Below the pieces are notes generated by a model. That model ran no database searches, had not been told where the DNA came from, and was given only the letters and a program-made list of their open reading frames with translations. Made by a program: the position numbers and the translations under genes. Positions 55 to 56,838 of a stretch of DNA of 64,000 nucleotides are shown in pieces. How positions within the stretch are numbered: the first letter of the stretch is position 1; each line of letters begins with the position of its first letter. Source of the DNA: Escherichia phage BEU50; the sequence record OM632671.1; one strand, given 5' to 3'.

Positions 55-1875
55 ATGATTAAAAATGAAATTAAGGTATTGTCAGATGTAGAACATATTA
101 AGAAACGTAGTGGTATGTATATTGGTTCTTCTGCTAAAGAAGCACATGAGCGTTTTTTGTTTGGTAAATATCAACAAGTTGAATATGTTCCTGGTCTGGT
201 TAAATTAATCGATGAGATTATTGACAACTCGGTTGATGAAGCTATTCGTACATCATTTAAGTTTGCAAATAAAATTGATGTGCAAATTAAAAATAATCAA
301 GTTTCGGTGGAAGATAACGGACGTGGTATTCCTCAAGGTTTAGTTACCGACCAAACGGGTGAACAAATTCCTGGGCCTGTAGCAGCCTGGACTATTCCAA
401 AGGCTGGTGGTAACTTTGGTGATGACTCTGAACGCAAGACTGGTGGTATGAACGGTGTAGGGAGTAGTTTAACTAATATCTTCTCTACGTTGTTTACAGG
501 CATCACGTCAGATGGCGAAAATGAAATCACTGTTAACTGTTCAAACGGAATGGAAAACAAATCATGGTCTTCTAAGAAATCTAAAGGTAAAGGCACTAAA
601 GTAATCTTCACTCCTGATTTCTCTTCATTTGAAGAGCATAATTTATCTCAAATTTATTTAGATATTACTTTAGACAGACTTCAAACATTGGCAGTCGTTT
701 ATCCTGATATCAAGTTCACATTTAATGGTAAAAAGGTTGATGGTAATTTTAAACGATTTGCTAAACAATTTGGTGAAGATAACATCATTCAAGAAAATGA
801 TAAAGTCTCTATAGCATTCACAACATCACCAGATGGCTTCCGTCATTTAACTTATGTGAATAACATCCATACTAAAAATGGTGGCCATCATGTTGAATGT
901 GTAATGGATGATATCTGTGAACATCTTTTGCCGGGTATTAAAAAGAAATATAAGGGTATTGAAGTCACTAAAGCTCGTGTTAAAGAATGCCTCACAATGT
1001 TGATGTTTATTAGAGACATGAGCAACATGCGTTTTGATTCTCAGACTAAAGAACGTTTAACGTCAACGTATGGTGATATTCGTAATCATATCCAATTAGA
1101 TGCTAAGAAAATTGCTCAGGCACTTCTTAAAAACGAAGCCTTGATTATGCCTATTGTTGAAGCAGCATTAGCTCGTAAATTGGCAGCAGAAAAGGCTGCA
1201 GAAACTAAAGCAGCTAAAAAGGCGACTAAAGCTAAGGTTCATAAGCATATTAAAGCTAACCAATGTGGTAAAGATGCAGATACGACATTGTTTTTAACAG
1301 AAGGTGATTCGGCAATTGGTTATCTCATTGATGTTCGTGACCGTGAACTACACGGCGGATTCCCATTACGTGGTAAGGTGATGAATAGCTGGGGTATGTC
1401 ATATGCTGATATGATGAAGAACAAAGAGCTCTTTGATATCTGTGCTATCACAGGTCTTATTCTTGGTGAAAAGGCAGAGAATACGAACTATCGTAATATT
1501 GCAATTATGACCGATGCCGATCATGACGGTCTTGGAAGTATCTATCCAGCTTTGCTTGCTTTCTTTAGTAATTGGCCTGAATTGTTTGAACAAGGACGTA
1601 TTCGCTTTGTTAAAACGCCTGTAATTATTGCACAAATTGGCAAAACTCAAAAATGGTTTTATACTGTAGCTGAGTATGAAGAAGCTAAAGATACACTGCC
1701 TAAGCATAGTATTCGATACATCAAGGGATTGGGCTCACTTCAGCGAGATGAATATAAAGAAATGATTCAAAACCCTGTGTACGACGTAGTTAAACTTCCT
1801 GAAAATTGGAAAGAACTATTTGAAATGCTCATGGGTAACGACCCTGAACTCCGTAAAGATTGGATGCTAGGATAA
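55..1875 (+). CDS. 39: DNA topoisomerase II large subunit, unsplit 39/60 form
   Basis: 606 aa ORF with RBS GAGGAG; GyrB-like ATPase N-terminus, Toprim motifs EGDSA and DADHDG. Confidence 0.9.
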   Translation: MIKNEIKVLSDVEHIKKRSGMYIGSSAKEAHERFLFGKYQQVEYVPGLVKLIDEIIDNSVDEAIRTSFKFANKIDVQIKNNQVSVEDNGRGIPQGLVTDQTGEQIPGPVAAWTIPKAGGNFGDDSERKTGGMNGVGSSLTNIFSTLFTGITSDGENEITVNCSNGMENKSWSSKKSKGKGTKVIFTPDFSSFEEHNLSQIYLDITLDRLQTLAVVYPDIKFTFNGKKVDGNFKRFAKQFGEDNIIQENDKVSIAFTTSPDGFRHLTYVNNIHTKNGGHHVECVMDDICEHLLPGIKKKYKGIEVTKARVKECLTMLMFIRDMSNMRFDSQTKERLTSTYGDIRNHIQLDAKKIAQALLKNEALIMPIVEAALARKLAAEKAAETKAAKKATKAKVHKHIKANQCGKDADTTLFLTEGDSAIGYLIDVRDRELHGGFPLRGKVMNSWGMSYADMMKNKELFDICAITGLILGEKAENTNYRNIAIMTDADHDGLGSIYPALLAFFSNWPELFEQGRIRFVKTPVIIAQIGKTQKWFYTVAEYEEAKDTLPKHSIRYIKGLGSLQRDEYKEMIQNPVYDVVKLPENWKELFEMLMGNDPELRKDWMLG

Positions 1876-2672
1876 TGAATTATCGTAAAATTTATGATAA
1901 ACTTATCGCTGCGGCTAAAAACCGCAGCATTATTCCTAATTATACTGAGACACATCATATATTGCCAAAATCTATGGGTGGGAGTAATGATAAATCAAAT
2001 CTAGTTAAAATGACCCCTAGAGAGCATTTTATCGCCCATTTATTGCTTTATAAAATTCATAAGAACCGTTCTATGCTTATGGCTATTAGAGCTTTTTACA
2101 TGGGAGCTAGAAATTCTAGAGATTATGATTGGCTTAAACAAGAATTCTCTAAAGAGCACTCTAGATTTATGAAAGAATGGATTGCTAAAAACGGCAACCC
2201 ATTTAAAGGTAAAAAACATACTAAAGCAACAAGAGAATTAATGTCACATATTGCTTCACAACGTATAGGCGAATTAAATCCATTTTATGGTAAAACTCAT
2301 ACGCAAGAAGCAATAGATAAAATAATACAGGCCAACAAGTTATCTTGGGAGAATGGGCGAAAAGCACCTGTAAAAACAAAAGAACACCAGGATAAAATAA
2401 CTAAATCAAGAATGGAAACATTTAAAACAAAAGGATTTAAACCATACACTCCTAGGTCGGAAGAAACTAAAGCTAAGACTAGAGAGTTGTATAAATCTAA
2501 ATATGAAAGAAGGCCTATAAGAATCACAAGTGTAAAAACAGGTGAAACTATTGATTTTAACTATCTTTATGAATTAAGAGAGTATTTAGATATAGGGTCT
2601 TCTAATATATTGAAAGCATTAAATAATCCTAACAGAACCTGCAAAGGTTATAAAATGTGTTGGATGTCCTAA
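1875..2672 (+). CDS. HNH homing endonuclease (I-TevIII/MobA-like)
   Basis: ATG overlaps gene 39 stop (TAATG); N-terminus MNYRKI shared with intron ORF at 28074; HHILPKSMGG HNH motif. Confidence 0.75.
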   Translation: MNYRKIYDKLIAAAKNRSIIPNYTETHHILPKSMGGSNDKSNLVKMTPREHFIAHLLLYKIHKNRSMLMAIRAFYMGARNSRDYDWLKQEFSKEHSRFMKEWIAKNGNPFKGKKHTKATRELMSHIASQRIGELNPFYGKTHTQEAIDKIIQANKLSWENGRKAPVKTKEHQDKITKSRMETFKTKGFKPYTPRSEETKAKTRELYKSKYERRPIRITSVKTGETIDFNYLYELREYLDIGSSNILKALNNPNRTCKGYKMCWMS

Positions 2673-10401: not shown

Positions 10402-10443
10402 TGCAAAAGTTATAAATAGGTTTATCTAACTAAAGGGGTATAT

Positions 10444-10656
10444 ATGCTACAATTAACTGAAAAGCAACTTCGCAATCTTACTGTTCTTCAATTAGATGAA
10501 ATTCGTAGGGAAGTTGGAAATATCATTTCAGCTTTGCGTCGAGAAGTATCACTCAACCAATCTCCGGCAGACTATACTAGATTGCGAAATTTTGAAAAAT
10601 ACCTTGATAAAGTTAAGGCCGTGCATCGGCATAAAGTAAATACAGGACAAAAATGA
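10444..10656 (+). CDS. hypothetical small protein
   Basis: 70 aa ORF in tk-nrdC region. Confidence 0.45.
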
Positions 10657-10668
10657 TAGGAGGCCTTT

Positions 10669-10962
10669 ATGGCCTTAAAAGCAACGGCACTATTTGCCAT
10701 GCTAGGATTAGCGTTTGCTTTATCTCCATCGATTGAAGCGAATGTCGATCCTCATTTTGATAAATTTATGGAATCTGGTATTAGACACGTTTATATGCTT
10801 TTTGAAAATAAAAGCGTAGAATCATCTGAACAGTTCTATAGTTTTATGCGAACGACTTATAAAAATGACCCGTGCTCTTCTGATTTTGAATGTATAGAGC
10901 GAGGCGCGGAGATGGCACAATCATACGCTAGAATTATGAACATTAAATTGGAGACTGAATGA
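10669..10962 (+). CDS. hypothetical secreted small protein
   Basis: 97 aa, RBS AGGAGG, N-terminal signal peptide. Confidence 0.5.
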   Translation: MALKATALFAMLGLAFALSPSIEANVDPHFDKFMESGIRHVYMLFENKSVESSEQFYSFMRTTYKNDPCSSDFECIERGAEMAQSYARIMNIKLETE

Positions 10963-11345
10963 AATTCAGCGACTTTTCACAAAGTGGAAAACCTTCAAAG
11001 GCAGATGAATACTTAGGTTTATTAATGGCTGCACAAGCTTATTTTCATTCTGCGCATTTTGAAACTAAAAGTTATGCTAGACACAAAGCATACGATTTTA
11101 TTTTCTCCGAGTTGCCAGATTTGATTGATAAATTTGGTGAGCAATATTTGGGGTATTCTGGTAGAAAATACACACCTTCAATTCCAGATGCTAGTAAACT
11201 TCCTACCGACACAATTAAAATGATTGATCGCATACTAGACCAATCTAACAGCATTTATAAAGAAATGCCTCCAGCCATTCAAAGCACGATAGATGATATC
11301 ACTGGGATGTTTTATCAGAGTAAATATCTTCTTTCCCTCGAATAA
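10959..11345 (+). CDS. hypothetical protein
   Basis: 128 aa ORF, overlapping start with upstream stop. Confidence 0.5.
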
Positions 11346-11350
11346 CGTTA

Positions 11351-11372
11351 GTCTCCTTCGGGAGACTTTTTT
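11351..11372 (+). terminator. rho-independent terminator GTCTCC-TTCG-GGAGAC plus T6
   Basis: perfect hairpin followed by TTTTTT. Confidence 0.7.
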
Positions 11373-11382
11373 CATTTTACCG

Positions 11383-11412
11383 GTTTACTTTCCATTTGAG
11401 CTGTGATACTAT
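11383..11412 (+). promoter_or_regulatory. T4-type early promoter
   Basis: GTTTAC, about 18 nt, TACTAT. Confidence 0.55.
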
Positions 11413-11440
11413 ACAACCATCGGATAAAGAGGAGAACATC

Positions 11441-11629
11441 ATGAAAATTGAAGCACTTAATCAAGAAGGAAATATCTACGTCATCATTAATGGTGATTTT
11501 TTCGTCGACATGGATGAAGTTACCAGTGAAGAACTTGTAGAACTTCTTAAGAAACGTTATAATATGTGTGATGAAGTTGCAACTCACATGGCGTGTGCAA
11601 TATTCTCTCTTTCATATGTGGTGGAATAA
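11441..11629 (+). CDS. hypothetical small protein
   Basis: 62 aa from ATG 11441 with RBS AAGAGGAG. Confidence 0.45.
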
Positions 11630-11645
11630 TGAAAACTGAAAAGCA
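11620..11645 (+). repeat. 26 nt direct repeat copy 1 (GGTGGAATAATGAAAACTGAAAAGCA)
   Basis: identical 26-mer spanning stop/RBS/start; second copy at 12010. Confidence 0.8.
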
Positions 11646-11832
11646 AGCGGATAAAATTAAGGAATTAGTGGCTTCAATTCGTAAAGCAGATGAAGAGCTG
11701 ATTGACTTTGCTTGGTATTCATCGGGTATTTCGAATAAAGGCATTAAAGACTTTGAAACTAAAGTTGATAATGCTTTAGAAGCGTTAGATATGTTTCTTG
11801 ATGAAATTATCGATCATAATACGAGAGTTTAA
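11629..11832 (+). CDS. hypothetical small protein (MKTEKQ start)
   Basis: 67 aa from ATG inside the 26 nt repeat. Confidence 0.45.
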   Translation: MKTEKQADKIKELVASIRKADEELIDFAWYSSGISNKGIKDFETKVDNALEALDMFLDEIIDHNTRV

Positions 11833-11834
11833 GT

Positions 11835-12029
11835 ATGCTAACACGTGAACAGTTTGAAAAAATCATTAAATTAGCACGTGATGTTGAAATAGATTCATAT
11901 CAATTAGCAGTTGAGCATTGTGAAGGATATTCATACGATGGTATAGAATCAGCTAAAAGGGATTTGGATAAATCTAAAGCTAAGTTAGTCCAATATCTTG
12001 AAATGATTAGGTGGAATAATGAAAACTGA
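11835..12029 (+). CDS. hypothetical small protein
   Basis: 64 aa ORF. Confidence 0.45.
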   Translation: MLTREQFEKIIKLARDVEIDSYQLAVEHCEGYSYDGIESAKRDLDKSKAKLVQYLEMIRWNNEN

Positions 12030-12035
12030 AAAGCA
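12010..12035 (+). repeat. 26 nt direct repeat copy 2
   Basis: identical to 11620-11645. Confidence 0.8.
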
Positions 12036-12192
12036 GATGTTTTTAATGAAACTAATTGAAGAATATGCTAATGCAGTTTCTGACTATGAGCGTTCTTCTC
12101 GGGAAAGAGGTACAGCTTTCGCCAAAGAAGAAATGAAAATCATGGTTGATGCTCACACAAAGCTTCAGAATTTTATTGAAAACAACATTTAA
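12019..12192 (+). CDS. hypothetical small protein (MKTEKQ start)
   Basis: 57 aa from ATG inside repeat copy 2. Confidence 0.35.
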   Translation: MKTEKQMFLMKLIEEYANAVSDYERSSRERGTAFAKEEMKIMVDAHTKLQNFIENNI

Positions 12193-12194
12193 CG

Positions 12195-12224
12195 GTTTAC
12201 AAGTTGGCAAGGTTATGGTATAGT
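12195..12224 (+). promoter_or_regulatory. T4-type early promoter
   Basis: GTTTAC, 18 nt, TATAGT. Confidence 0.55.
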
Positions 12225-12359
12225 AATCTTGTCAACTGTCAAGGAGAAGAGAATGAAAGTTTTGTTTGTTGTGTATGTAATGATTCAATATAATTACCCA
12301 ATGTTTACTTATAATCTGGTGAACAACATTATTGATATTATTCAAAGGAGTATGTAATT

Positions 12360-12590
12360 GTGAGTGAGTCGAAGAGAATCAATATGAAACGATTAGTATT
12401 AGAAGTTAGTCCGCTTTTTGGTGAATTGGCTATAGAAAAAGTAAATAACATGTATCGTTTGACGCAAGAAGACGATATGCTATATTTTACGCCTAGTGAA
12501 ATCATTCATTTAACCCAAATTGAATATCCTTATACTGATAAAATAGTAAGTATCAATGATGAGCACAAAATTCATTGCTCGTTTGATTGA
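12360..12590 (+). CDS. hypothetical small protein
   Basis: 76 aa; GTG start 8 nt after AAGGAG (alternative ATG at 12384). Confidence 0.4.
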   Translation: MSESKRINMKRLVLEVSPLFGELAIEKVNNMYRLTQEDDMLYFTPSEIIHLTQIEYPYTDKIVSINDEHKIHCSFD

Positions 12591-12680
12591 AGTTGAAGCC
12601 CAAATTGCAGAACACACCAAATTGTTAAAAGCTCTTAATGCAAAAGCAAATGGTTTACGTAATGCTATTGAGGTATTGAA

Positions 12681-12995
12681 ATGAAAAAGCGTCTATTAGA
12701 AGACATTGCAGCTTCAAGTAATTCCAGTTTAATTAAAATTATTATGGCCGGTGAAGAAGACGATCTGGAAATGCGTGGAAAGATTTATGGTTGTGATGAT
12801 TATAGCAGCCCTATTAATTGGGATTCTGTAATGGTCATGGTTGAACGTCGCGAAAGGGCTTCTAAAAACGTTCCTAATTGCCCTGAATGTGGAACTGAAC
12901 AGGTGCAATTAGTCCATTGGCAGACTAATAATCTTCGTTATAAATGTCGCCATTGTAAACACCGATTTGACCGAGAAGAAAATGACAAAGCGTAA
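12681..12995 (+). CDS. hypothetical zinc-ribbon protein
   Basis: 104 aa; CPECG…CRHCKH. Confidence 0.5.
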
Positions 12996-13224
12996 AGAAT
13001 ATATGGAGACCGCCGAAAAGGCAGTCCGTGAATTAGCAATAGCTTATTATAATGAACACGGTAAATTTCCTGATAGATACAGCGTGCTTAAATCTGCTTT
13101 AACTCGTTCATATAAAAATATGCTATCAGAAGTAAGTGATATTATATACAAACATAAAGAACAAACGGGCCAAAGTCTTGATTACGACGAGACTTTTAAA
13201 CAAGTACTAGGAATTAAGGAATAA
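12982..13224 (+). CDS. hypothetical small protein
   Basis: 80 aa from ATG 12982. Confidence 0.45.
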
Positions 13225-13225
13225 T

Positions 13226-13489
13226 ATGTTTAAAGTATATGGTTATGATAGCAACATCCATAAATGTGTGTATTGCGATAATGCAAAACGTCTTTTGACC
13301 GTGAAGAAACAGCCGTTTGAATTTATCAACATTATGCCGGAAAAAGGTGTTTTTGATGATGAGAAAATCGCTGAGCTTCTGACTAAACTAGGTCGTGATA
13401 CTCAAATCGGCTTAACAATGCCTCAGGTATTTGCTCCTGATGGAAGTCATATTGGTGGATTTGACCAATTGCGGGAATACTTTAAATGA
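13226..13489 (+). CDS. nrdC: glutaredoxin/thioredoxin NrdC
   Basis: 87 aa; CVYC active site. Confidence 0.85.
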   Translation: MFKVYGYDSNIHKCVYCDNAKRLLTVKKQPFEFINIMPEKGVFDDEKIAELLTKLGRDTQIGLTMPQVFAPDGSHIGGFDQLREYFK

Positions 13490-13701
13490 TTCTCGAAGGA
13501 ACTGATTATATCCATGATTACCGCGGAAGCGCGGTATATGTAGGTGATGAAGTTGCAGTTTACTACGGGTATGGAACTTTGATGACAGCCAAGGTTATTC
13601 AAATTAAAAATAATCGTGCTAAACTCGAAGTTTATTATTCTAACGGCGAAAAGTCTATTTCTAAGTGGAAATACGGCGATTGTATGGTCAAACTGGGGTA
13701 A
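13486..13701 (+). CDS. hypothetical small protein
   Basis: 71 aa, ATGA overlap with nrdC stop. Confidence 0.45.
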   Translation: MILEGTDYIHDYRGSAVYVGDEVAVYYGYGTLMTAKVIQIKNNRAKLEVYYSNGEKSISKWKYGDCMVKLG

Positions 13702-13703
13702 AT

Positions 13704-13874
13704 ATGATTTACGATATTAGTGCAGCAAGAGCTCCATCAATGGTTGCTATTCCAGCTGAAGAATTAGATCGTCTTCATAAAATTGAAGAACTTCTGTGGG
13801 AAATTGAATCTGATTTGCCATCAGGATTAGAATCCTGGATTGATTATGAAGAACTTAATAAGCTTCGGGGTTAA
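13704..13874 (+). CDS. hypothetical small protein
   Basis: 56 aa from first ATG of the 13665 ORF. Confidence 0.3.
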   Translation: MIYDISAARAPSMVAIPAEELDRLHKIEELLWEIESDLPSGLESWIDYEELNKLRG

Positions 13875-13996
13875 ACCCTGGTGGGCGGCTAGATGGGAAA
13901 CTGTAGAGCCAGAGCCGGAAGAACCGGTTTACACTGATGAAGAAACAGTATATAATGAACCAACGATAAATGACTTAATTGATATGGAGATGGGAC

Positions 13997-14482
13997 ATGA
14001 TTACAGTAGATAAGTGGTTTAGAATTAATCGTGTTGATACAGGGCTATGTAATTACTGGCCGGAACTTAGTGCAGGTACTGTCTTTAAAGTTCGTGAACT
14101 TGCAAAAGAATGTGAAGATGATATAGAACCTGATACTGGAATTATTGAAATTGAACTTTCTGATGGAAAGATTATTAACATCTATGATAAGCCAATTACG
14201 TATTGGTGCTTGTGGAATACTGAATCCGTTGAAAATGGCGAAATTGAAGAAGTTGTAGAGAGAACTAGCCAAGATGCTCAGAAGCCTAAAGCCGCTTTTC
14301 AAGGTGAACGTATTTCATACGCATTAGCTAAATTAGCTGCACAAGAAAATAACGATGGTTATGAAGGAAATTTAATGCAAGCTGCCGCAGAGTACATTGA
14401 ATGGCTTGAAACTCAAATTTCTTTTTCTGACCAAATGATTCGGCAATATAAGCGATTGCATCAAATGTTTTACAATACTTGA
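13997..14482 (+). CDS. pin: Pin-like protein (protease inhibitor position)
   Basis: 161 aa from ATG 13997 with RBS GGAGA; length and position match T4 pin. Confidence 0.55.
   Translation: MITVDKWFRINRVDTGLCNYWPELSAGTVFKVRELAKECEDDIEPDTGIIEIELSDGKIINIYDKPITYWCLWNTESVENGEIEEVVERTSQDAQKPKAAFQGERISYALAKLAAQENNDGYEGNLMQAAAEYIEWLETQISFSDQMIRQYKRLHQMFYNT
14408..14482 (+). repeat. direct repeat copy A (3-prime end of pin)
   Basis: two sub-blocks (26 nt and 48 nt) recur at 14483-14510 and 14648-14695. Confidence 0.75.
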
Positions 14483-14695
14483 AAAAACTCAAAATTCTTT
14501 TTCTGACAAGGCATTTTAATGAAAACCGAATTGGTTTATACTGAAAAGTTAAATGGCGGTAAGGTTTGGAAACTTTTTATTAAAGGACATTCTACGGACC
14601 CTCATATGACCACTTGCGTAGGAACCTATTCTCGTCCTACTAAAAAGATGATTCGACAGTATAAACGATTGCATCGAATGTTTTACAATACTTAA
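14483..14695 (+). repeat. direct repeat copy B flanking a 58-codon ORF
   Basis: AAAAACTCAAAATTCTTTTTCTGACA at 14483 and ATGATTCG…TACAATACTTAA at 14648. Confidence 0.75.
14519..14695 (+). CDS. hypothetical small protein sharing Pin C-terminal 15 aa
   Basis: 58 aa ending MIRQYKRLHRMFYNT, the same tail as the pin ORF. Confidence 0.4.
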   Translation: MKTELVYTEKLNGGKVWKLFIKGHSTDPHMTTCVGTYSRPTKKMIRQYKRLHRMFYNT

Positions 14696-14704
14696 ATAAT
14701 AAAT

Positions 14705-14735
14705 ACCCTTATCTATTTAAGGTAAGGGTTTTATT
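14705..14735 (+). terminator. hairpin plus T-run before gene 49
   Basis: ACCCTTA … TAAGGGT stem followed by TTTTATT. Confidence 0.5.
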
Positions 14736-15209
14736 ATGTTATTGACTGGCAAATTATACAAAGAAGAAAAACAAAAATTTTATAATGTACAAAACGGTAA
14801 ATGCTTAATTTGCCAACGAGAACTAAATCCTGATGTTCAAGCTAATCACCTTGACCATGACCATGAATTAAATGGACCAAAAGCAGGAAAGGTACGTGGA
14901 TTGCTTTGTAATCTCTGCAATGCTGCAGAAGGTCAAATGAAGCACAAATTTAATCGTTCTGGCTTAAAGGGTCAAGGTGTTGATTATCTTGAATGGTTAG
15001 AAAATTTACTTACTTATTTAAAATCCGATTACACCCAAAATAATATTCACCCTAACTTTGTTGGAGATAAATCAAAGGAATTTTCTCGTTTAGGAAAAGA
15101 GGAAATGATGGCCGAGATGCTTCAAAGTGGATTTGAATATAATGAATCTGACACCAAAACACAATTAATAGCTTCATTTAAGAAGCAGCTTAGAAAGAGT
15201 TTAAAATGA
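14736..15209 (+). CDS. 49: endonuclease VII (Holliday junction resolvase)
   Basis: 157 aa; CLICQ…CNLC zinc site plus HLDHDHE. Confidence 0.85.
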   Translation: MLLTGKLYKEEKQKFYNVQNGKCLICQRELNPDVQANHLDHDHELNGPKAGKVRGLLCNLCNAAEGQMKHKFNRSGLKGQGVDYLEWLENLLTYLKSDYTQNNIHPNFVGDKSKEFSRLGKEEMMAEMLQSGFEYNESDTKTQLIASFKKQLRKSLK

Positions 15210-16027
15210 ATGTAGTATATAAACTATCATTTATTAATAGAATTAATGCTAAAACCCCACCATATTATTACATTGGAAGTAAAACCAATTGCACTTTTGA
15301 TGGAACGAATATTATTGATAAAAATGGTAAATTTTATTATTCGTCTTCGTCATCTTCTGAATTTCAAAAAGCCTTATTGAAAGAAACGCCGAAAGTTGAA
15401 ATATTATATTTTCAATTAGTCGGAGATGAACAAATAACTAGCATTGAAGCTGAATTTCAAAAGAATATAGAAAAAGATGTATGGAATAAAGAGTATTTTA
15501 ATTTAGCATATGCTGATGGCAAATTTACGACATATGGTATTTCTCCTTCTAAAGAAACTAGAGAAAAGCAATCAATAACCATGATTAAAAGAAATCGTAA
15601 TAAAGGCAAAAATCATGGATTTTATGGAAAGCATCATACTAATTTAGCTAGAAAGAAAATATCAGAAGCTTCTAAAAAATACTGGAAAGAAAATCCACAT
15701 CGTGGATTTTCGCATACAAAGGAAGCTAAAATTAAAATTGGAATTTCATCTTCTATCAGGCATAAAGGAAGTGGAAATCCGATGTATGGTGTAAAACCTT
15801 GGAAAACTCCGAGCGCAATTAAATCTGGTACTTGTATATTATGGTTAAAATACGCAGAAATTTTATATGATTATTTAAGTCCAGATTTTAAAAGTAAATC
15901 ATCTATTTTTGCGGATTTAAACTTACCGAAATTTAGAATTGATAATTTCATCAAAAGGTTTAAAATGGGTTGGAACCCATATTTAGACGAAGAATTTCAA
16001 AAGGATAAATTAGAATTATGTCTTTAG
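15206..16027 (+). CDS. GIY-YIG/NUMOD-type homing endonuclease-like protein (seg-like)
   Basis: 273 aa; VVYKLS…YYYIGSK and repeated GxxHT/NPMYG NUMOD-like motifs; inserted between 49 and nrdD. Confidence 0.6.
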   Translation: MNVVYKLSFINRINAKTPPYYYIGSKTNCTFDGTNIIDKNGKFYYSSSSSSEFQKALLKETPKVEILYFQLVGDEQITSIEAEFQKNIEKDVWNKEYFNLAYADGKFTTYGISPSKETREKQSITMIKRNRNKGKNHGFYGKHHTNLARKKISEASKKYWKENPHRGFSHTKEAKIKIGISSSIRHKGSGNPMYGVKPWKTPSAIKSGTCILWLKYAEILYDYLSPDFKSKSSIFADLNLPKFRIDNFIKRFKMGWNPYLDEEFQKDKLELCL

Positions 16028-17016
16028 AAAAAGATGTTTTAAATTTTATTTCAAATAAAGATAAAGAATTAAATACAGAAAACGCCAACAAAGATTCTCG
16101 CGTCTTTCCAACAAAAAGAGATTTAATGGCCGGTATTGTTTCTAAACATATCGCTTGTCGTATTCTTCCAAGTCATATTGTAAATGCCCATAATGTTGGA
16201 TTAATTCATTTTCATGATTTAGATTACAGTATATCATTGCCTTTTACTAATTGCTGTTTAGTAGATTTAAAAGGAATGCTTGAGAACGGGTTTAAGCTCG
16301 GTAATGCACAGATTGAAACTCCTAAATCAATCGGTGTTGCTACTGCAATTATGGCACAAATTACTGCACAGGTTGCTTCTCACCAATATGGCGGAACTAC
16401 ATTTGCTAATGTCGATAAAGTACTTTCTCCTTATGTTAAACGCACCTATGCAAAACATATCGAAGACGCAGAAAAATGGCAAATCGCCGATGCGTTAAAT
16501 TATGCTCAATCTAAAACAGAAAAAGACGTATACGATGCATTCCAAGCTTATGAATATGAAGTAAATACTCTCTTTAGTTCAAACGGACAGACTCCTTTTG
16601 TAACAATTACATTTGGTACAGGAACTGACTGGACTGAACGAATGATTCAGAAAGCAATTCTGAAAAATCGTATTAAAGGTCTTGGTCGTGATGGGATAAC
16701 TCCTATTTTCCCTAAGCTTGTTATGTTTGTTGAAGAAGGTGTTAATCTTTATAAAGACGATCCGAACTATGATATTAAGCAGCTTGCTCTAGAGTGTGCA
16801 AGCAAAAGAATGTATCCTGATATTATTTCAGCTAAGAACAATAAAGCTATCACTGGTTCATCTGTTCCTGTTTCTCCAATGGGTTGCCGTAGTTTCTTGG
16901 GCGTATGGAAAGATTCGACTGGTAATGAAATTCTTGATGGACGTAATAATCTTGGCGTTGTAACACTGAATCTTCCTCGCATCGCGTTAGATTCTTATAT
17001 TGGAACACAGTTCAAT
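16018..17016 (+). pseudogene. nrdD: anaerobic ribonucleotide reductase NrdD, 3-prime truncated (N-terminal ~333 codons only)
   Basis: NrdD-like sequence to …[17 protein letters not shown]; remainder of the ORF to 17103 is reverse complement of gene 37 start; no glycyl-radical C-terminus. Confidence 0.8.
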
Positions 17017-17150
17017 CCTGAGTCATCTTTTGTGAAAATTGTTTTATCTTTTAAGTTTATAGCCAATTCACCTTCGGCTAATACTGAAGCAGCAGGACGT
17101 TGACCTGCAGTTTTGCTTCTTTTAAATTGTATTTGTTTTAAAGTAGCCAT
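16995..17150 (-). pseudogene. 37: long tail fibre distal subunit gene 37, 51-codon N-terminal stub
   Basis: [13 protein letters not shown]…TKDDSG then LNCVPI-stop; gp37-like only to codon 45. Confidence 0.75.
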
Positions 17151-17158
17151 AAGTCCTC

Positions 17159-17809
17159 TTAATAATAGCCGAAATCTTGAACAGAATCCTTAATTACGAT
17201 TTGGTCAAATCGTGGAACGTGTGAAGGTTGAGATGCAGGATTCTGTGAAAAAAGGTTTGGCGCAGTTAAATTTCCTGTCATAGTGTCTCCAGAGCGTAAT
17301 ACCCTAGAGTTTGCATTTGCTGTAACAGTATTTATTGCTCCATCAACATAATCTTTACGAGTAGCATCTGATGCTGCGGAAGGAGTAGATGTAACAGTTA
17401 CAGATGGAGCCGTTACAGCTTTGGTAAATGTTGTCAAACCTTCTGGCGTAATAGTAATTTGTCCAGTAGTGATTTCACTACCTGCTGGTCTAAAACTAAT
17501 ACCGCCAGAAGAGCCACCAACTACAAGAGTATTACCAGTGCCGCCACCAGAACGAATTCGGATGGGGGTTTCATTATTACTTAATTGAAGATAACTATTT
17601 ACACCATAATTAATAGTAACTGGGCCTGTGTAAGTACCACCAGTAGATTTAGAAACGAAATCATTATCAGCTGCCTGTGGTTTATTATATTCTGAATATA
17701 TTTTAAATGATTTGTAGAGTACATCGTCACCGGCTGAATTCAACGGAAAATTTCCTTGATGCCAAATGACAGATCCACCTACAGTTGAACCTCCTTTTAA
17801 ATCAGCCAT
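17159..17809 (-). CDS. 36: long tail fibre subunit gp36
   Basis: 216 aa; N- and C-termini match gp36 as recalled. Confidence 0.9.
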
Positions 17810-17832
17810 AGTATGCCCATTTATTTTAATAT

Positions 17833-17840
17833 TATTTATA
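17833..17840 (-). promoter_or_regulatory. late promoter TATAAATA
   Basis: TATAAATA on minus strand 24 nt upstream of gene 36 ATG. Confidence 0.6.
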
Positions 17841-17842
17841 AA

Positions 17843-17866
17843 GAAAAAAGGAGCCCGGCGGCTCCC
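17843..17866 (-). terminator. hairpin GGAGCC-GCCG-GGCTCC plus T6 (minus strand)
   Basis: between gene 35 stop and gene 36 late promoter. Confidence 0.6.
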
Positions 17867-17871
17867 TCAGT

Positions 17872-18987
17872 TTAAACTTCTCTAAATTCCTGTCCAAACA
17901 CTTTACCAGTTTTAGACGATGCCTGTGTAGGAAGTACCATTATATCTGGAGGTGAAGCCGATTCACAGACATAATTAACGCGAATACCATTGACGCCAAA
18001 TTCGGCAGGTTTTGAAATGCCGCCATTTCTTGATACTTCAGAAAAGCTTAAATTTCTCATACCGCCTTGACCCGCTTGGGCGGTTCTCTGTGTGTATATC
18101 GTAAATCCTACTGCATTTTCAGGAACAACTACATAATCTTCTTTTAATTCCCAAGACCCAGCTTGCCCAGTAAACTCAGCTTGGGTCGAGGAAATATATC
18201 CATTTGATGCATCATAAAAACGAATAGATATATTTGCAGTTCCAAGATCAAGTAAATCAGCATCAGCATATAGTTGTGCTTTAAGATAAAGAACATCACC
18301 AGGAATTAAATTGTAGTCAGAAAGTTTACTTATAGCAGCTGAAGTTGGTAAACGCGCAATTTCATTATTAGTTCCACCAACCGCAGACATAAATTGCTCA
18401 ACGCTTTCGTATGTTCTTTTAGGAAATCCTGTAGCTCCGACGTCTTCTAAACTATCAAATACAACATCTAAAATAGTTTGATAATCATCTGTGCTTTTTC
18501 TATTACTTAGTTTAACATGCTCTAATGCAATAGCTCTTTTAGAAGAAGTATAAAAAGCAGCATATGACACGTCAAATCTTGACAATACTGAATCTGATGG
18601 AAAAACTGAAGTTCCTGCTCCCCTTAACCAAGATACCACTTCAGGAGGAAAATTAACCTTTCCGCTAGTTAATATAGCAACAAGTCTATTGTTTGACAAA
18701 GAATTCATGAAACTGACAAAAGTGGTAGATGTTGTATTGTTTGAAGCAGAAAAAGCATATGACTTACTATCAACTAATGCTCCCGTAGAAGGGTCAAAAA
18801 CTCTTAAATGAAGACCTGCACTAAATGTTTGATTTCCAACGGGATTATCCTGAAATTTAACATATGGTCCCGCAGTAGAAAGCGGGCAAGAACCCGCTAT
18901 GCTTATTTTATATCTTACTGAATTGCTTTCCGATAAAAATGGCGTTTGGACATATCCTTGTCCAAACTCTGCCATAAATTTTTCCAT
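17872..18987 (-). CDS. 35: long tail fibre hinge protein gp35
   Basis: 371 aa; position and length. Confidence 0.85.
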   Translation of the reverse strand: MEKFMAEFGQGYVQTPFLSESNSVRYKISIAGSCPLSTAGPYVKFQDNPVGNQTFSAGLHLRVFDPSTGALVDSKSYAFSASNNTTSTTFVSFMNSLSNNRLVAILTSGKVNFPPEVVSWLRGAGTSVFPSDSVLSRFDVSYAAFYTSSKRAIALEHVKLSNRKSTDDYQTILDVVFDSLEDVGATGFPKRTYESVEQFMSAVGGTNNEIARLPTSAAISKLSDYNLIPGDVLYLKAQLYADADLLDLGTANISIRFYDASNGYISSTQAEFTGQAGSWELKEDYVVVPENAVGFTIYTQRTAQAGQGGMRNLSFSEVSRNGGISKPAEFGVNGIRVNYVCESASPPDIMVLPTQASSKTGKVFGQEFREV

Positions 18988-18995
18988 AATACCTC

Positions 18996-21900
18996 TTATT
19001 CAACCCATTCAAATTTAACAGTTTTATTCACTGGGTCAGGAATAATGCGAACATTACCAATTCGTAAGAAATCACGAATAGTAAGATTACCTATTATTCC
19101 ATTATCAGATGGGATTGCTCCTATATCCGAAGGTTGAGGAGGATTACCTCCATCGAATACCTGAACAAAACTTGACCAAGAGTTTTTGGTTTTCTGCCAT
19201 GTACGTGTCCAGCGAGTGGTACGTGCTTCTGGGGTCGTTGGATAAGTAATCCAATCTTGGTAAAGTGAATCAAGTGTGTTACCAAACTGAGTCAATGTAC
19301 CAGGAGATTTAACTTCTTCACCGCGTTCTAAATATGGAAGTCCAGTCACTTCATTAGTTTTTTCAACCATTTTAAAATAACCCGGGAACTGGTTATAAGT
19401 GGCTGAATCATTAATATCGATTGACCAGAATCCTACAGTATCAGATGTTGGCGCACGGGTATATAAATCAGATGTTTTAACACCTTGAGAACGAATTCTC
19501 GAGTTAACAGTTAAACCGCCTGAACTTATAGTAGCACCTTTTGCAATGATTAAGCTTTCACCAATCGTTACTTGGCCAGATGCATTATTAATAGATAAAG
19601 GACGTAATCCATTAAATCCGCCAGTTTGATCACCCGATGCAGTAAGCATAAAATTCGTTACTGACCCATCATTGCGAACAATGAAACCATAATTTCCGTT
19701 AATAGCACGGAAAGCATTTGCGCTTCGAGAAATAATTTCACCAGTTGCAGTGACTGAATTACCAAATGTTGCTACACCATTTGCATTCAATGTTCCTGAA
19801 GCATTAACATTTATCGGTGTTACTGTACCGTTGATATTAAATGTTATATTTCCAGCTTTATTACGCTGAGAATAAAAATGACTAGACGTTTCATCACTAA
19901 CTTCAAATACGGTAGAACGTGTTGTGTCTGATTCCCCACTAAATTGATTTCCCCACACTCTGACTGTCATCGTTTGAGCCGGGTTTGTTCCAGTTTGAGG
20001 TCCTTTCTCAAAAATCAATCGAGTTGCCGTTCCAGTATTAGAAATAGTTAATGTACTATTTGCTGAAACTGATCCACCGAATGTAGCAGTACTAGATGAT
20101 ACAAGAGGGGCACTCAGATTCGTTTGTTGGGTTAAGGTTAGTGAACCATTAACTGTTTGTGCAATGTCCCTACGAATGAACTGGAGCGAATCTAGACCAT
20201 CTAATAAATTACTATCTACAGCTTTTGCTTTTAATGGCAAATAATTTGCTAATACGCGATTTAATTCATATGGTGATACTGCATAACCATTTTTCTCATA
20301 TGATTCTAATGGTTGTGTTGAACCTACCGTATCATTACCAACGAATGTAATTGAACCAGATGAAGTTTTAACAAACCCTCTTATCAGAGTAGTTGCTGCC
20401 CAAGTTGGTTCACTCTGCACAATCCATTTTAAATTTTTTGGAGATACAGCAGTATTTGCTGATGTTCCAGTCACAGTTTCAGACTGAGTTGCAACTTTAA
20501 TAACACCTTCCTGTGCTTCAGTAGATTTAGTACCTAAAAGCTTTTTAGGAGTTATTAAAACATTATCTAATGTTCCTGCAGCAGCTTCAACTTGTGTAGC
20601 TACACGAAGTGTACCACGCTGTGTCTCATTTGCTTCAAGAATATTAAGTGTATAATGGTCCCAGAGAGTTCCTGATTCAACTAATCCAGATAGAGCAACA
20701 ACAGAAGTACGATCAGTACTATTAAATCTAGTTTTAATTTTTAATGGTGTAGAGATGCGAGTATCGTCGACGCCTGCGTCGAATTCAACTTGCGTAGCAA
20801 TTTCAGCTATACCACTTAAACTTTCAGTTGCTCTACGGTCATTTAAAGTTTTAGGAGTGACTGCACGAGTATAGTCAGTTCCTGTGTTAACTTCACTTTG
20901 CGTAGCAATTTCAATTAAACCAATTCTTCCATCAGTTGATGTCTTTTTATGTAACGTTTCTGGCGTTACAACCGCATTTGCCCATCCTTCTTGGCTTTGT
21001 CCAGCAATTACTTCACTTTCAACTGCTAAAATTACTGCGCCTTGTTGCGTTGGAGTAGCTTTATACTGATCCAAAGCTTTAGGTGAAACAACTAAATTAT
21101 TAGTGTTTTTATTATAAACATTCGTACCATTTAATTCACGGCTAGAAGCTGGAGTAGCTCCTGCAGTAGATACATAAGTTACAATACCAGATAATGATTC
21201 AGAACCTTGGCGAGCTTGAAGCTTTTTAGGAGTGATGATTGTAGTATCATCAGTACCTGTATTAGTTTCCTGCTGCGTAGCAATTTCAGCGACACCTCTA
21301 CGAGTTTCTGTAGCAGTTCTTTCATTCAGCTTTTTAGGAGTGATGATAAGGTCATCTGCAAAAGAGAATGTGGTGTTCTGATTCACTTGAGCAGTAGTTG
21401 CTATTCTTGCAATACCTCTGCGAGTTTCTGTAGCAGTACGATTAGCTAACGTTTCTGGAGTAATTGCTAATTCTTTTTGTGGAGAATTTTCTAAATCAGC
21501 ATTTGCTTGAGCTTGCGTAGCTAAAGCAATTACGCCTAATCTTGCTCTAGTAGAAGCATTTAAAGAGTCTACTCTTTCTACAGTTGGAACGTTTTGCTGT
21601 ACAACCCAGCATTTTCCATCAGAATCTTCTATATAAGCAAGTTGTAAAACTGGAACATAATTAGTTTCACCGTTAAAAACTAATTCTTGAACTGTTACCC
21701 ATTCAGCTTCAGGCGGATATTCTGAACGTTTTGGGAATTGCAGCAATTGAACTGAGGAAGCAATTTTATCTTCACCTGCAGCTTTGATTTTAACTGTTTG
21801 TCCTTTTCTCATGTAATTCATGGAAATTTTAACAGTATCACCAACAGAAATATCAGTCGGAAGCTGAAGTTCAATTGTTTGGGTTGTTCCATTATTCGCG

Positions 21901-22865: not shown

Positions 22866-22899
22866 TCTCCCGGGCTCCTATTGTGTTTTCAATAATAAG

Positions 22900-27915: not shown

Positions 27916-28038
27916 GTATCTTTTGCGTAAAATGCGCCTTTAAACGGTAACGTTTATCGAAAACTCCTTTAATTGCTGGAAAGTCCTTTATAGGAAAACT
28001 AGCAGCCAAGGTTTTGCTTGCACCTTTAATTAGTATAA

Positions 28039-28046
28039 TATAAATA
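28039..28046 (+). promoter_or_regulatory. late promoter TATAAATA inside intron
   Basis: 28 nt upstream of the intron ORF start. Confidence 0.5.
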
Positions 28047-28073
28047 TGGTTATACTTTTAAGAGGATGCACAA

Positions 28074-56070: not shown

Positions 56071-56814
56071 TTACCTTAAACGGCCTTTAACATATCCATC
56101 TGGGATGGATAACGGATTTACTAATTTATTTATAGCCCCGTTATTTACCCATATTCTGCCGGTGGTCGTAGGTTTTACTTCACAGCCCTTTCTAGATTTT
56201 CTATTAAGTTGGACCATTCCTTTTACAAATCCTTCAGGCATCGGGTCCTCGGCTGATATAAATCTGTTTTCTTTACCGTTGTTAACACAAATTTTATTTA
56301 GAGTTGTAGGATTTTTAGGACCTTTAATTTTATCAATCTTTGGCTTTCCTGTACCATACCGCCCGTGGCATGTTGGGTCTTCAGAGTATCGACGTTTATT
56401 TGTTTCAGATAGTTTTCTTTTTGTTTCTTCCGATCTGTGTTTTCCTAAAAGATTATGACCAAGCCTCTTTATTCGTTCTTTAGCACTATTAGACATTTTA
56501 GTCTTATCAGCTTCGGTGTACTTATACCTTCCACCTTCACCGCCTTGGCGCATATTATAATACTCGTTAGATTTGACCAAATCCTCTGTTACTAACTGAG
56601 CTTCGTATTCTAAAGCTTCAGCGGAAGTTTCAAATTGTTTAATTATTGAACGTTTAAATGATTCTTCTCCGTATTTTTTGATAGCGCGATTTAAGGCAAC
56701 ACCTGACCCTAGATACGAATCATTTAAATTTTCTGTAGAATGTTTGCCAATGTACTTTTTACCATTGATTAAATTTACGGTCTCATAAACAAAGTGATAC
56801 ATACTCTTTTCCAT
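56071..56814 (-). CDS. GIY-YIG homing endonuclease (seg-like)
   Basis: start taken at MEKSMYHFVYE; GIY-YIG motif region; late promoter upstream. Confidence 0.7.
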   Translation of the reverse strand: MEKSMYHFVYETVNLINGKKYIGKHSTENLNDSYLGSGVALNRAIKKYGEESFKRSIIKQFETSAEALEYEAQLVTEDLVKSNEYYNMRQGGEGGRYKYTEADKTKMSNSAKERIKRLGHNLLGKHRSEETKRKLSETNKRRYSEDPTCHGRYGTGKPKIDKIKGPKNPTTLNKICVNNGKENRFISAEDPMPEGFVKGMVQLNRKSRKGCEVKPTTTGRIWVNNGAINKLVNPLSIPDGYVKGRLR

Positions 56815-56830: not shown

Positions 56831-56838
56831 TATTTATA
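56831..56838 (-). promoter_or_regulatory. late promoter TATAAATA
   Basis: minus-strand TATAAATA upstream of the seg-like gene. Confidence 0.5.

What the first reader, a model, noticed from the sequence alone, without database searches (positions are those of the whole stretch)
15206..16027. High load of free-standing homing endonuclease genes
Besides the intron ORF and the HNH gene after 39, three GIY-YIG-type genes sit between core genes: 15206-16027 (between 49 and nrdD), 56071-56814 (between uvsW and inh, minus strand, with its own late promoter) and 62015-62674 (between 23 and 24). That is five endonuclease genes in 64 kb, and the first one lies immediately upstream of the nrdD/37 breakpoint.
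Basis: partly seen in the sequence, partly recalled or inferred. Interest (0 to 1): 0.4.

Follow-up and report, generated by a model that had tools for sequence, protein, structure and literature searches.

The report
Five homing endonuclease genes, T4-like phage
The window is T4-like phage DNA that really does carry five selfish "homing endonuclease" genes, but this density equals that of phage T4 itself and all five belong to known families, so the finding is correct but ordinary.

Summary
The window holds exactly five homing endonuclease genes (HEGs):
- a Mob-like HNH gene after an unsplit gene 39 (1860-2672);
- a SegG-like GIY-YIG gene between 49 and nrdD (15206-16027);
- a full-length I-TevIII in the nrdB group I intron (28074-28883);
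- a SegE-like gene between uvsW and inh (56071-56814, minus strand, TATAAATA 17 nt upstream);
- a SegD-like gene antisense between 23 and 24 (62015-62674).

Each is a minority presence/absence allele, found in 10-82 of 50,697 phage records. The insertions are precise, of 736-812 bp.

The 49|nrdD gene is an 812-bp cassette that is absent from T4. It is completely linked to a diverged first ~240 nt of nrdD: 58-66% identity to HEG-less phages, against 90-100% in the rest of the flanks. I infer that its cleavage target lies in that tract.

The load is not exceptional: 5 per 64 kb, against T4's 15 per 169 kb.

The window is a composite. It has four abrupt joins that remove essential genes, so a per-genome load cannot be derived from it. 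Nothing ties the nrdD/37 join to the endonuclease. This is known biology; at most the 49|nrdD gene is an uncharacterised member of the SegG family at a site not occupied in T4.

The parts
1860..2672 (+). Free-standing HNH (Mob-like) homing endonuclease gene with NUMOD3 repeats. It starts 16 nt before the stop of an unsplit gene 39.
   Evidence: Pfam NUMOD3 5.1e-09; HNH 0.0018, below cut-off. PHROG 655 'homing endonuclease' 2.6e-57. BLASTP: MobB 46%, MobE 54%, MobD 38%. It is an 800-bp insert (1860-2659) relative to phage JK45. The allele is present in 19 phage records.
1731..1851 (+). Two clusters of substitutions in the 3' end of gene 39 next to the HNH insert. Candidate target or immunity polymorphism.
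   Evidence: Identity to HEG-less JK45 drops to 72% and 82% in two 50-nt bins, while the rest of the flanks are 94-100%.
14736..15209 (+). Gene 49 (endonuclease VII), the upstream flank. Its TGA stop overlaps the ATG of the endonuclease gene (ATGA).
   Evidence: Pfam Endonuclease_7 and Endonuc-dimeris; junction alignment.
15206..16027 (+). SegG-like GIY-YIG free-standing homing endonuclease gene: N-terminal catalytic domain 1-~105, NUMOD3 linker, C-terminal DNA-binding region. It is a promoter-less 812-bp cassette inserted exactly at the 49|nrdD overlap.
16018..16260 (+). Diverged 5' tract of nrdD, co-inherited with the endonuclease gene. Inferred location of its cleavage target in HEG-less phages and of the immunity polymorphism.
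   Evidence: 58-66% nt identity to T4, CHD16UKE1 and SSE1, against 90-100% in gene 49 and in nrdD beyond ~nt 240. The tract is found at >=95% identity in 49 records and at 60-80% in 932 records. That matches the 48-49 carriers of the endonuclease gene.
27927..29018 (+). Group I intron in nrdB. Boundaries are approximate, within about 3 nt.
   Evidence: Exons align to intron-less nrdB of phage AlbertHofmann at 27423-27926 and 29019-29550. Rfam Intron_gpI at 28728-28968, E 4.8e-07, 35.6 bits, below the gathering score of 50. The DNA is collinear with the T4 nrdB intron.
28074..28883 (+). Full-length I-TevIII (HNH) intron-encoded endonuclease gene, 269 aa.
   Evidence: Pfam HNH_3 6e-13. PHROG 12324 2e-193, covering 1-269 of 269. 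96.6% identity to the truncated T4 I-TevIII over its last 89 aa. TATAAATA at 28039-28046 just upstream.
56071..56814 (-). SegE-like GIY-YIG free-standing homing endonuclease gene between inh and uvsW, in the same orientation as uvsW.
   Evidence: Pfam SegE_GIY-YIG 29.7 bits (cut-off 25) and GIY-YIG 25.8 bits (cut-off 22.6). 48.6% identity to T4 SegE. It is a 736-bp insert (56071-56806) relative to phage FL18. This allele is in 10 records.
56831..56838 (-). T4 late-promoter consensus TATAAATA, 17 nt upstream of the SegE-like ATG.
56127..56134 (-). Second TATAAATA, inside the 3' end of the SegE-like gene and 62 nt upstream of the uvsW start. An embedded promoter for the host gene, as described for T4 segE.
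   Evidence: the T4 parallel is described in PMC2988022.
55934..55964 (-). Cluster of mostly synonymous substitutions in uvsW codons ~34-45. Candidate SegE-type target or immunity site.
   Evidence: 12 nt differences in ~31 nt but only 2 aa changes against HEG-less FL18, in flanks that are otherwise 96-100% identical. T4 SegE targets uvsW (PMC2988022).
62015..62674 (+). SegD-like GIY-YIG free-standing homing endonuclease gene, antisense between genes 24 and 23, as segD is in T4.
   Evidence: 58.4% identity to T4 SegD over 221 aa. TIGR01453 56.8 bits against a cut-off of 56.05. PHROG 314 7.8e-54. 77 records cover at least 80% of the locus. T4 has the same arrangement.

Best explanation
The window is Tevenvirinae (T4-like) DNA carrying five ordinary homing endonuclease genes. 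Four occupy positions or families already described in T4:
- I-TevIII in the nrdB intron, here intact as in RB3;
- a SegE-type gene at inh/uvsW;
- a SegD-type gene antisense at 23/24;
- a Mob-type HNH gene next to the topoisomerase gene 39.

The gene at the finding's own coordinates (15206-16027) is an intact SegG-family GIY-YIG enzyme with a NUMOD3-containing DNA-binding part. It is an 812-bp promoter-less cassette inserted exactly into the ATGA overlap of gene 49 and nrdD. It uses the start codon position that nrdD uses in T4. A new nrdD start lies inside its 3' end.

Inferred mechanism, by analogy with SegG, SegE and SegF. In mixed infections the enzyme makes a double-strand break in the 5' ~240 bp of nrdD of phages that lack it. 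Repair from the carrier genome then copies the gene together with the diverged, cleavage-immune nrdD 5' tract.

Shown here: gene identity, precise insertion, presence/absence polymorphism, and complete linkage with the diverged tract. Inferred only: cleavage activity, the exact target, and homing.
For: - Five HEG ORFs and no more.
- HEG-less phages, including T4, have gene 49 and nrdD overlapping. In an even sample of 60 of the 1,645 matching records, 29 show the 1,003-bp uninterrupted junction and 2 show the insert. In total 48 records hold the insert, and 49 by tblastn.
- nrdD nt 1-~240 is 58-66% identical to HEG-less alleles, against 90-100% elsewhere.
- That tract occurs at >=95% identity in 49 records and at 60-80% in 932, with almost nothing in between.
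- The catalytic domain is 40% identical to the experimentally active T4 SegG (activity per PMC2988022).
- In 22 homologues E81 and N99 are invariant, and Y5, Y22, I23 and G24 are nearly so.
- hhalign aligns VVY to GIY, YYIG to YVG and YFN to GYN of I-TevI, with 80-90% probability.
- The AlphaFold N-domain has pLDDT ~90 and a beta-beta-alpha-beta-alpha order.
- The profile hits the I-TevI DNA-binding domain 1I3J at E 1.8e-4.
- Analogous substitution clusters sit next to the SegE-like and HNH inserts.
Against: - The 49|nrdD ORF has no Pfam GIY-YIG hit and no PDB sequence hit to a catalytic domain.
- Foldseek against the PDB is not significant: the I-TevI catalytic domain 1LN0 is only rank 18, E 8.7, TM 0.54.
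- The canonical catalytic Arg (I-TevI R27) has no clear counterpart.
- The diverged nrdD tract also changes many amino acids. It could therefore be a co-transferred foreign segment rather than a selected immunity polymorphism.
- No cleavage or homing data exist for this gene. I found no paper describing it.
Confidence: 0.8

Rival explanations
1. The apparent load is partly an artefact. The window is not one natural molecule but a concatenation or chimeric assembly of pieces from at least two related phages, one Tequatrovirus-like and one Mosigvirus-like. The five genes would then never have coexisted in one genome at this density.
For: - blastn against T4 shows five collinear blocks joined abruptly at 6157/6158, ~12574, 17016/17017 and 24536/24537, and the first block is out of order.
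- The joins truncate rIIA, a glycyl-radical gene, nrdD and gene 37. They also omit essential genes such as 32, 43, 41 and 45.
- No phage record spans any 22-kb or 4-kb query across these joins.
- The 17016 junction 30-mer is absent from IMG/VR and from the JGI metagenomes.
- Identity to T4 is 91-98% for 6158-27198 but 68-82% elsewhere. The best matches for the right-hand part are Mosigvirus phages.
Against: - Each HEG sits in locally intact context, with both flanks contiguous for kilobases.
- Single phages carry several of them: KAW3E185 covers 44001-64000 in one piece with both Seg genes, and phage a20 has both the HNH gene and the intron.
- T-even genomes are naturally mosaic.
Confidence: 0.6
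2. The 49|nrdD endonuclease caused the nrdD/37 rearrangement: a double-strand break it made in nrdD was repaired illegitimately to gene 37.
For: - The join is in nrdD, 989 bp downstream of the gene.
- Illegitimate repair of HEG breaks and HEG-driven segmental amplification are documented in T-even phages (PMC2988022; abstract of PMC13096335).
- T4 coordinates of three of the four joins fall within about 0.5 kb of sites that are HEG-polymorphic in T4: mobD, the nrdD intron, and segG/td.
Against: - The join lies ~750 bp beyond the tract linked to the endonuclease and ~460 bp beyond the I-TevII intron site.
- The carrier's own nrdD allele should be immune.
- The product would lack tail-fibre gene 37 and about 59 kb of essential genes, so it is not viable.
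- Three similar joins occur elsewhere, and there is only 0-1 bp of overlap at the junction.
Confidence: 0.05
3. The 49|nrdD ORF is a decayed or domesticated Seg relative. It binds DNA, for example as a regulator of nrdD, but no longer cleaves or homes.
For: - There is no Pfam GIY-YIG hit, and the catalytic Arg is not identifiable.
- The copy in phage FL18 is truncated at residue 205, which shows that decay does occur.
- I-TevI is known to moonlight as a repressor (PMC2988022).
Against: - The ORF is full length, 273 aa, the same as its 98%-identical cluster of 82 sequences.
- All family-invariant residues are kept.
- The same motif pattern is present in T4 SegG, which is active.
- Tight linkage to a diverged flank is what active homing produces.
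Confidence: 0.12

Closest known systems
T4 SegG (gene 32.1), a free-standing GIY-YIG homing endonuclease between genes 59 and 32
   Same: - 40% identity over the whole catalytic domain (residues 1-126), with the same VVY/PPYYYIGSK/YxSS/E/YFN motif set.
- Both are promoter-less cassettes in the same orientation as their neighbours.
- The inferred target lies in the adjacent downstream gene, some distance from the insertion (SegG cuts gene 32; PMC2988022).
   Different: - The insertion site differs: 49|nrdD instead of 59|32.
- The DNA-binding C-terminal half is unrelated. No BLAST match extends beyond residue 126, and the protein is 273 aa against 210 aa.
- The target and the activity have not been tested.
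T4 SegE (inh/uvsW) and T4 SegD (23/24)
   Same: The window's genes at 56071-56814 and 62015-62674 occupy the same intergenic positions and orientations as SegE and SegD. [quoted passage not shown]
   Different: - They are only 48.6% and 58.4% identical to the T4 proteins, while the flanking genes are 74-82% identical at the DNA level. They are therefore distinct alleles at the same sites.
- The SegE-like protein is 247 aa against 205 aa in T4.
- An extra 93-aa ORF precedes the SegD-like gene.
I-TevIII of phage RB3 (intact) and of T4 (truncated), the nrdB group I intron HNH endonuclease
   Same: Same intron and same host gene. The last 89 aa are 96.6% identical to the T4 remnant. The full 269-aa length matches PHROG 12324 end to end. 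A late-promoter consensus lies upstream.
   Different: None of substance. Unlike T4, the ORF is not deleted.
T4 MobA-E (free-standing HNH endonucleases)
   Same: The N-terminal HNH domain is 38-54% identical to MobB, MobD and MobE. The gene is adjacent to the topoisomerase large-subunit gene, which is also the reported target of mobA.
   Different: T4 mobA is a pseudogene lying inside the split 39/60 gene. Here gene 39 is unsplit (606 aa) and the HNH gene follows its stop, so it is not a positional orthologue.
SegH (phage U5), MobC and I-TevII: other endonucleases that target the nrdD/nrdG locus
   Same: nrdD is again the host or target gene. The review notes that the anaerobic reductase genes are repeatedly targeted (PMC2988022).
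   Different: SegH and MobC lie between nrdD and nrdG, and I-TevII lies in the nrdD intron. This gene is at the opposite, 5' end of nrdD. I did not compare it with the SegH sequence.

Membership tests
GIY-YIG nuclease superfamily (ORF 15206-16027) | N-terminal 'GIY' and 'YIG' beta-strand motifs about 10-15 residues apart | tested here: met
   VVY(3-5) and YYIG(21-24). Y5, Y22, I23 and G24 are at least 90% conserved in 22 homologues. They align to I-TevI GIY and YVG in a global hhalign run.
GIY-YIG nuclease superfamily (ORF 15206-16027) | Conserved catalytic Glu and Asn (I-TevI E75 and N90) | tested here: met
   E81 and N99 are invariant in alignment A1. N99 aligns to N90, and E81 falls within one residue of E75.
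GIY-YIG nuclease superfamily (ORF 15206-16027) | Conserved catalytic Arg after the YIG strand (I-TevI R27) | tested here: inconclusive
   No Arg aligns there. The SegG-like family has K26/N28 and a nearly invariant R12 instead. T4 SegG shares this pattern.
GIY-YIG nuclease superfamily (ORF 15206-16027) | Match to the curated family profile (Pfam PF01541 or PF19835) | tested here: not met
   The only Pfam hit is NUMOD3. TIGR01453 scores 21.2 bits against a cut-off of 56. The local profile-profile match to Seg/I-TevI has 90% probability.
GIY-YIG nuclease superfamily (ORF 15206-16027) | Three-stranded sheet plus helices fold of the I-TevI catalytic domain | tested here: inconclusive
Free-standing homing endonuclease gene (all four non-intron genes) | Precise presence/absence polymorphism between otherwise collinear close relatives | tested here: met
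   Inserts of 812, 736 and 800 bp have clean boundaries. Carriers number 48, 10, 77 and 19 records, against hundreds of records with empty sites.
Free-standing homing endonuclease gene (all four non-intron genes) | Modular build: nuclease domain plus NUMOD or other DNA-binding modules | tested here: met
   NUMOD3 is found in the 49|nrdD, SegE-like and HNH genes. There is a match to the I-TevI DNA-binding domain 1I3J. The HNH and SegG-like proteins share 31% identity over their DNA-binding parts.
Free-standing homing endonuclease gene (all four non-intron genes) | Flanking sequence divergence linked to the gene (co-conversion or target immunity) | tested here: met
   This holds for nrdD 5', uvsW codons 34-45 and the gene 39 3' end. 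It was not seen for the SegD-like gene, whose flanks are 98-100% identical.
Free-standing homing endonuclease gene (all four non-intron genes) | Site-specific double-strand cleavage and super-Mendelian inheritance in mixed infection | not testable with these tools
   This needs enzyme assays and phage crosses.
HNH endonucleases (1860-2672 and 28074-28883) | HNH (beta-beta-alpha-metal) motif recognised by curated profiles | tested here: met
   28074-28883: HNH_3 48.7 bits against a cut-off of 24.8. 1860-2672: Pfam HNH only 18.8 bits against 21.4, but the HHILPKSMGG...N motif is present, PHROG 655 scores 2.6e-57, and it is 38-54% identical to MobB, MobD and MobE.
Group I intron (nrdB) | Catalytic core recognised by Rfam RF00028, and interruption of an otherwise continuous gene | tested here: inconclusive
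   The core match is E 4.8e-07 but 35.6 bits, below the gathering score of 50. There is no hit at the gathering threshold. The interruption of nrdB relative to an intron-less orthologue is clear, as is collinearity with the T4 intron.

The most novel reading that the evidence does not exclude
The SegG-like gene at 49|nrdD defines a homing site that has not been studied experimentally, at the 5' end of nrdD. That would make nrdD a gene attacked from three sides by unrelated endonucleases: this gene at the 5' end, I-TevII in the intron, and MobC/SegH at the 3' end. In addition, the abrupt joins in this window, three of which fall within ~0.5 kb of HEG-polymorphic loci, might be real endonuclease-triggered rearrangements rather than assembly artefacts.
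Probability: 0.07. Interest if true: 0.5.

Novelty: new member of a known kind. Interest (0 to 1): 0.2.

Why it matters
Free-standing homing endonucleases shape which alleles survive when T-even phages co-infect a cell (marker exclusion), and they drive local gene exchange. The 49|nrdD cassette and its completely linked, diverged nrdD 5' tract form a clean natural example. It could be used to map a new SegG-family target. Beyond that, the finding adds nothing unexpected: the number, families and positions of the genes are what the T4 literature predicts. The practical value of this check is a warning that the window is a composite. Any statement about per-genome load, or about rearrangements next to these genes, needs the original reads.

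Tried and rejected
- Pfam, NCBIfam and phmmer against the PDB gave no catalytic-domain hit for the 49|nrdD ORF.
- A 22-sequence profile against the PDB hit only the I-TevI DNA-binding domain.
- I first suspected that the gene was SegH. I rejected this because SegH and MobC sit between nrdD and nrdG, not between 49 and nrdD.
- I first took the HNH gene for MobA. I rejected it as a positional orthologue because T4 mobA lies inside the split 39/60 gene.
- Rfam at gathering threshold found no intron. Only the E-value mode did.
- A global MAFFT alignment misplaced the intron gap. I replaced it with blastn.
- Exact searches for the 17016 junction in IMG/VR and in JGI metagenomes found nothing.
- Two literature searches found no paper on an endonuclease gene at 49|nrdD.
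- The 36-nt similarity between 15452-15487 and 15992-16044 was not pursued and may be chance.
Full report
**What the window is**

megablast places the window among Tevenvirinae phages of E. coli, Shigella and Yersinia. Its plus strand corresponds to the minus strand of the T4 record. A blastn comparison with the T4 genome (AF158101, fetched) shows five collinear blocks:

| Window | T4 coordinates | Content |
|---|---|---|
| 41-5032 | 5342-1272 | 39, rIIA |
| 6158-12576 | 63828-57624 | |
| 12572-17016 | 49045-44354 | nrdC, pin, 49, nrdD |
| 17016-24536 | 156676-149138 | 37', 36, 35, 34, rnh, 33 |
| 24537-64000 | 143081-105242 | nrdA ... uvsW ... 24, 23 |

The joins cut through rIIA, a glycyl-radical gene, nrdD and gene 37. 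They leave out essential genes such as 32, 59, 43 and 41. Identity to T4 is 91-98% for 6158-27198 and 68-82% elsewhere. The best relatives of the right-hand part are Mosigvirus phages.

No record in the phage collection spans the joins. A 30-mer across 17016 is absent from IMG/VR and from the JGI metagenomes. I therefore treat the window as a composite, either concatenated contigs or a chimeric assembly, until reads show otherwise.

**The observation**

The two further endonuclease ORFs also exist. A six-frame scan with three profiles built from T4 and window sequences, plus tblastn with all fifteen T4 endonuclease proteins, finds these five loci and nothing else. DenA (29548-29958) and gp49 are the only other related nucleases.

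**Family assignments**

- **1860-2672.** NUMOD3 scores 5.1e-09. A weak HNH hit falls below the Pfam cut-off. PHROG 655 scores 2.6e-57. It is 46%, 54% and 38% identical to MobB, MobE and MobD.
- **28074-28883.** HNH_3 is above cut-off. PHROG 12324 matches end to end at 2e-193. The protein is 96.6% identical to the truncated T4 I-TevIII. It lies in a ~1.09-kb interruption of nrdB. I defined that interruption against an intron-less orthologue. It contains a sub-threshold Rfam group I core.
- **56071-56814.** Pfam SegE_GIY-YIG and GIY-YIG are both above cut-off. It is 48.6% identical to T4 SegE.
- **62015-62674.** It is 58.4% identical to T4 SegD. TIGR01453 scores just above its cut-off. It lies antisense to genes 23 and 24, exactly as segD does in T4 (PMC2988022).

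**The gene at the finding's coordinates (15206-16027)**

The evidence for a GIY-YIG domain is as follows:

- Residues 1-126 are 40% identical (E 6e-26) to T4 SegG, a GIY-YIG homing endonuclease listed as active in the T4 review (PMC2988022).
- Twenty-one homologues from the large protein collection share VVY, PPYYYIGSK, YxGSS, an invariant Glu (E81) and YFN (N99).
- A profile of this domain aligns to an alignment of SegA-E plus I-TevI with 90% probability locally and 80% globally. It pairs GIY, YIG and Asn correctly, and Glu to within one residue.
- The AlphaFold model has a confident N-domain (pLDDT ~90) with the expected order of strands and helices.
- The middle part matches the I-TevI DNA-binding domain (1I3J, E 1.8e-4).

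The evidence against is weaker but real. Structure search against the PDB was not significant. The catalytic Arg of I-TevI has no clear counterpart. BFVD lists a 97%-identical protein already named 'SegG homing endonuclease' in Shigella phage JK42.

I conclude that it is a SegG-family GIY-YIG enzyme. The profile-level evidence is weaker than for the other two Seg genes.

**Insertion anatomy**

In T4, and in most relatives, the stop of gene 49 overlaps the start of nrdD as ATGA. In carriers, an 812-bp cassette sits exactly there. The endonuclease ORF now starts at that ATG, and nrdD starts 10 nt before the endonuclease stop.

Forty-eight records hold the insert, or 49 by tblastn. In an evenly spaced sample of 60 of the 1,645 matching records, 29 had the uninterrupted 1,003-bp junction and 2 had the insert.

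Gene 49 is 95-100% identical between carriers and non-carriers right up to its stop. In contrast, the first ~240 nt of nrdD are only 58-66% identical. Identity then returns to 90-100%.

This tract occurs at >=95% identity in 49 records and at 60-80% in 932, with one record in between. It is therefore, within the resolution of the counts, completely linked to the endonuclease gene.

This is the signature described for SegG/gene 32, SegE/uvsW, SegF/gene 56 and MobE/nrdB. In those cases the target lies in the neighbouring gene, some distance from the insertion, and flanking sequence is co-converted (PMC2988022). I infer that the enzyme's target lies in the 5' ~240 bp of HEG-less nrdD. This is an inference, not a demonstration.

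**The other loci**

- The SegE-like allele is a 736-bp insert relative to FL18. Ten records have it.
- Twelve substitutions that change only two amino acids cluster in uvsW codons ~34-45.
A second copy inside the 3' end of the gene precedes uvsW. This matches the embedded-promoter arrangement described for T4 segE.
- The HNH gene is an 800-bp insert relative to JK45, found in 19 records. Two substitution clusters lie in the last 150 nt of gene 39.
- The SegD-type locus is covered to at least 80% in 77 records. Many phages have nothing there, or only a small ORF. No flank divergence was seen.
- The nrdB intron with a full-length ORF is in 82 records.

**Is the load high?**

T4 is annotated with 15 such genes in 168,903 bp, which is 5.7 per 64 kb (table in PMC2988022). 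The T4 segments homologous to this window hold six: the mobA remnant, I-TevII, mobE, the I-TevIII remnant, segE and segD. The window holds five. It lacks the nrdD intron and mobE, and it gains the 49|nrdD gene.

Each allele is a minority one among relatives, so the combination is richer than in a typical T-even phage. It is not richer than in T4. The composite nature of the window also forbids a per-genome statement.

**The breakpoint hint**

The nrdD/37 join is 989 bp beyond the endonuclease gene. It lies ~750 bp beyond the linked tract and ~460 bp beyond the I-TevII intron site. It has 0-1 bp of overlap and is one of four similar joins.

Three of the four joins fall within about 0.5 kb of loci that are HEG-polymorphic in T4: mobD, the nrdD intron, and segG/td. 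That pattern would also be expected if an assembler broke contigs at strain-variable sites in a mixed sample. I rate a causal role of the endonuclease at about 5%.

**Verdict**

The finding is ordinary T-even biology. The only mildly new element is an uncharacterised SegG-family member at a site that is empty in T4, with a well-defined candidate target tract. It is already annotated as a homing endonuclease in about 48 public genomes.

Noticed in passing
window 6157/6158, 12572-12576, 17016/17017, 24536/24537: There are four abrupt joins between blocks that are far apart, or in a different order, in T4. They truncate rIIA, a glycyl-radical (vs.6-like) gene, nrdD and gene 37. They also omit essential genes such as 32, 59, 43 and 41. 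Overlap at the joins is 0-5 bp. No public record or contig that I searched contains the 17016 junction.
   Followed up: partly
window 1-5032 and 27254-64000, against 6158-27198: Identity to T4 is 68-82% in the outer parts, whose best relatives are Mosigvirus phages. It is 91-98% in the middle part. This suggests either a natural mosaic or a mixture of two phages in one assembly.
   Followed up: partly
window 14435-14486 and 14648-14699: A 52-nt direct repeat (88% identical) duplicates the 3' end of pin (peptide MIRQYKRLH(Q/R)MFYNT). It brackets a 58-aa DUF7279 ORF (14519-14695) that is absent from many close relatives. It looks like a small insertion made by recombination at a duplicated gene end.
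   Followed up: partly
window 61730-62011 (+): A 93-aa ORF with no Pfam or NCBIfam match lies directly upstream of the SegD-like gene on the same strand, antisense to genes 23 and 24. HEG-less relatives such as WFL6982 carry a different, non-homologous small ORF at the same place. A sigma-70-like site (61687-61715) precedes it, but that is not more than chance would give.
   Followed up: partly
window 15452-15487, against 15992-16007 and 16025-16044: A ~36-nt stretch inside the catalytic domain of the 49|nrdD endonuclease (peptide EFQKNIEKDVWN) resembles the region around its own stop and the nrdD start (EFQKD...LEKDVLN). This may be chance, or a trace of how the cassette was inserted.
   Followed up: no
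window 2715-3815 (+): A 366-aa ORF between the HNH gene and rIIA has no Pfam hit. T4 has only the small rIIA.1 and 60 genes in this interval.
   Followed up: no
window 16553-16556 and 27202-27254: nrdD is intron-less at the T4 I-TevII intron site, and there is no mobE between nrdA and nrdB. Two T4 endonuclease sites are therefore empty here. Several phages that carry the 49|nrdD gene do also have an nrdD intron endonuclease, for example fPS-2, G8, F26 and Manna.
   Followed up: partly
window 28074-28883, residues 74-114 of the protein: Pfam FlgM (anti-sigma-28) scores just above its cut-off (26.2 bits against 25) inside I-TevIII. This is probably a spurious low-complexity helical match.
   Followed up: no
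phage FL18 (PP400780.1), 104712-105326: The copy of the 49|nrdD endonuclease gene in this Mosigvirus matches only residues 1-205, at 96% identity. It appears to be a truncated, decaying copy.
   Followed up: no
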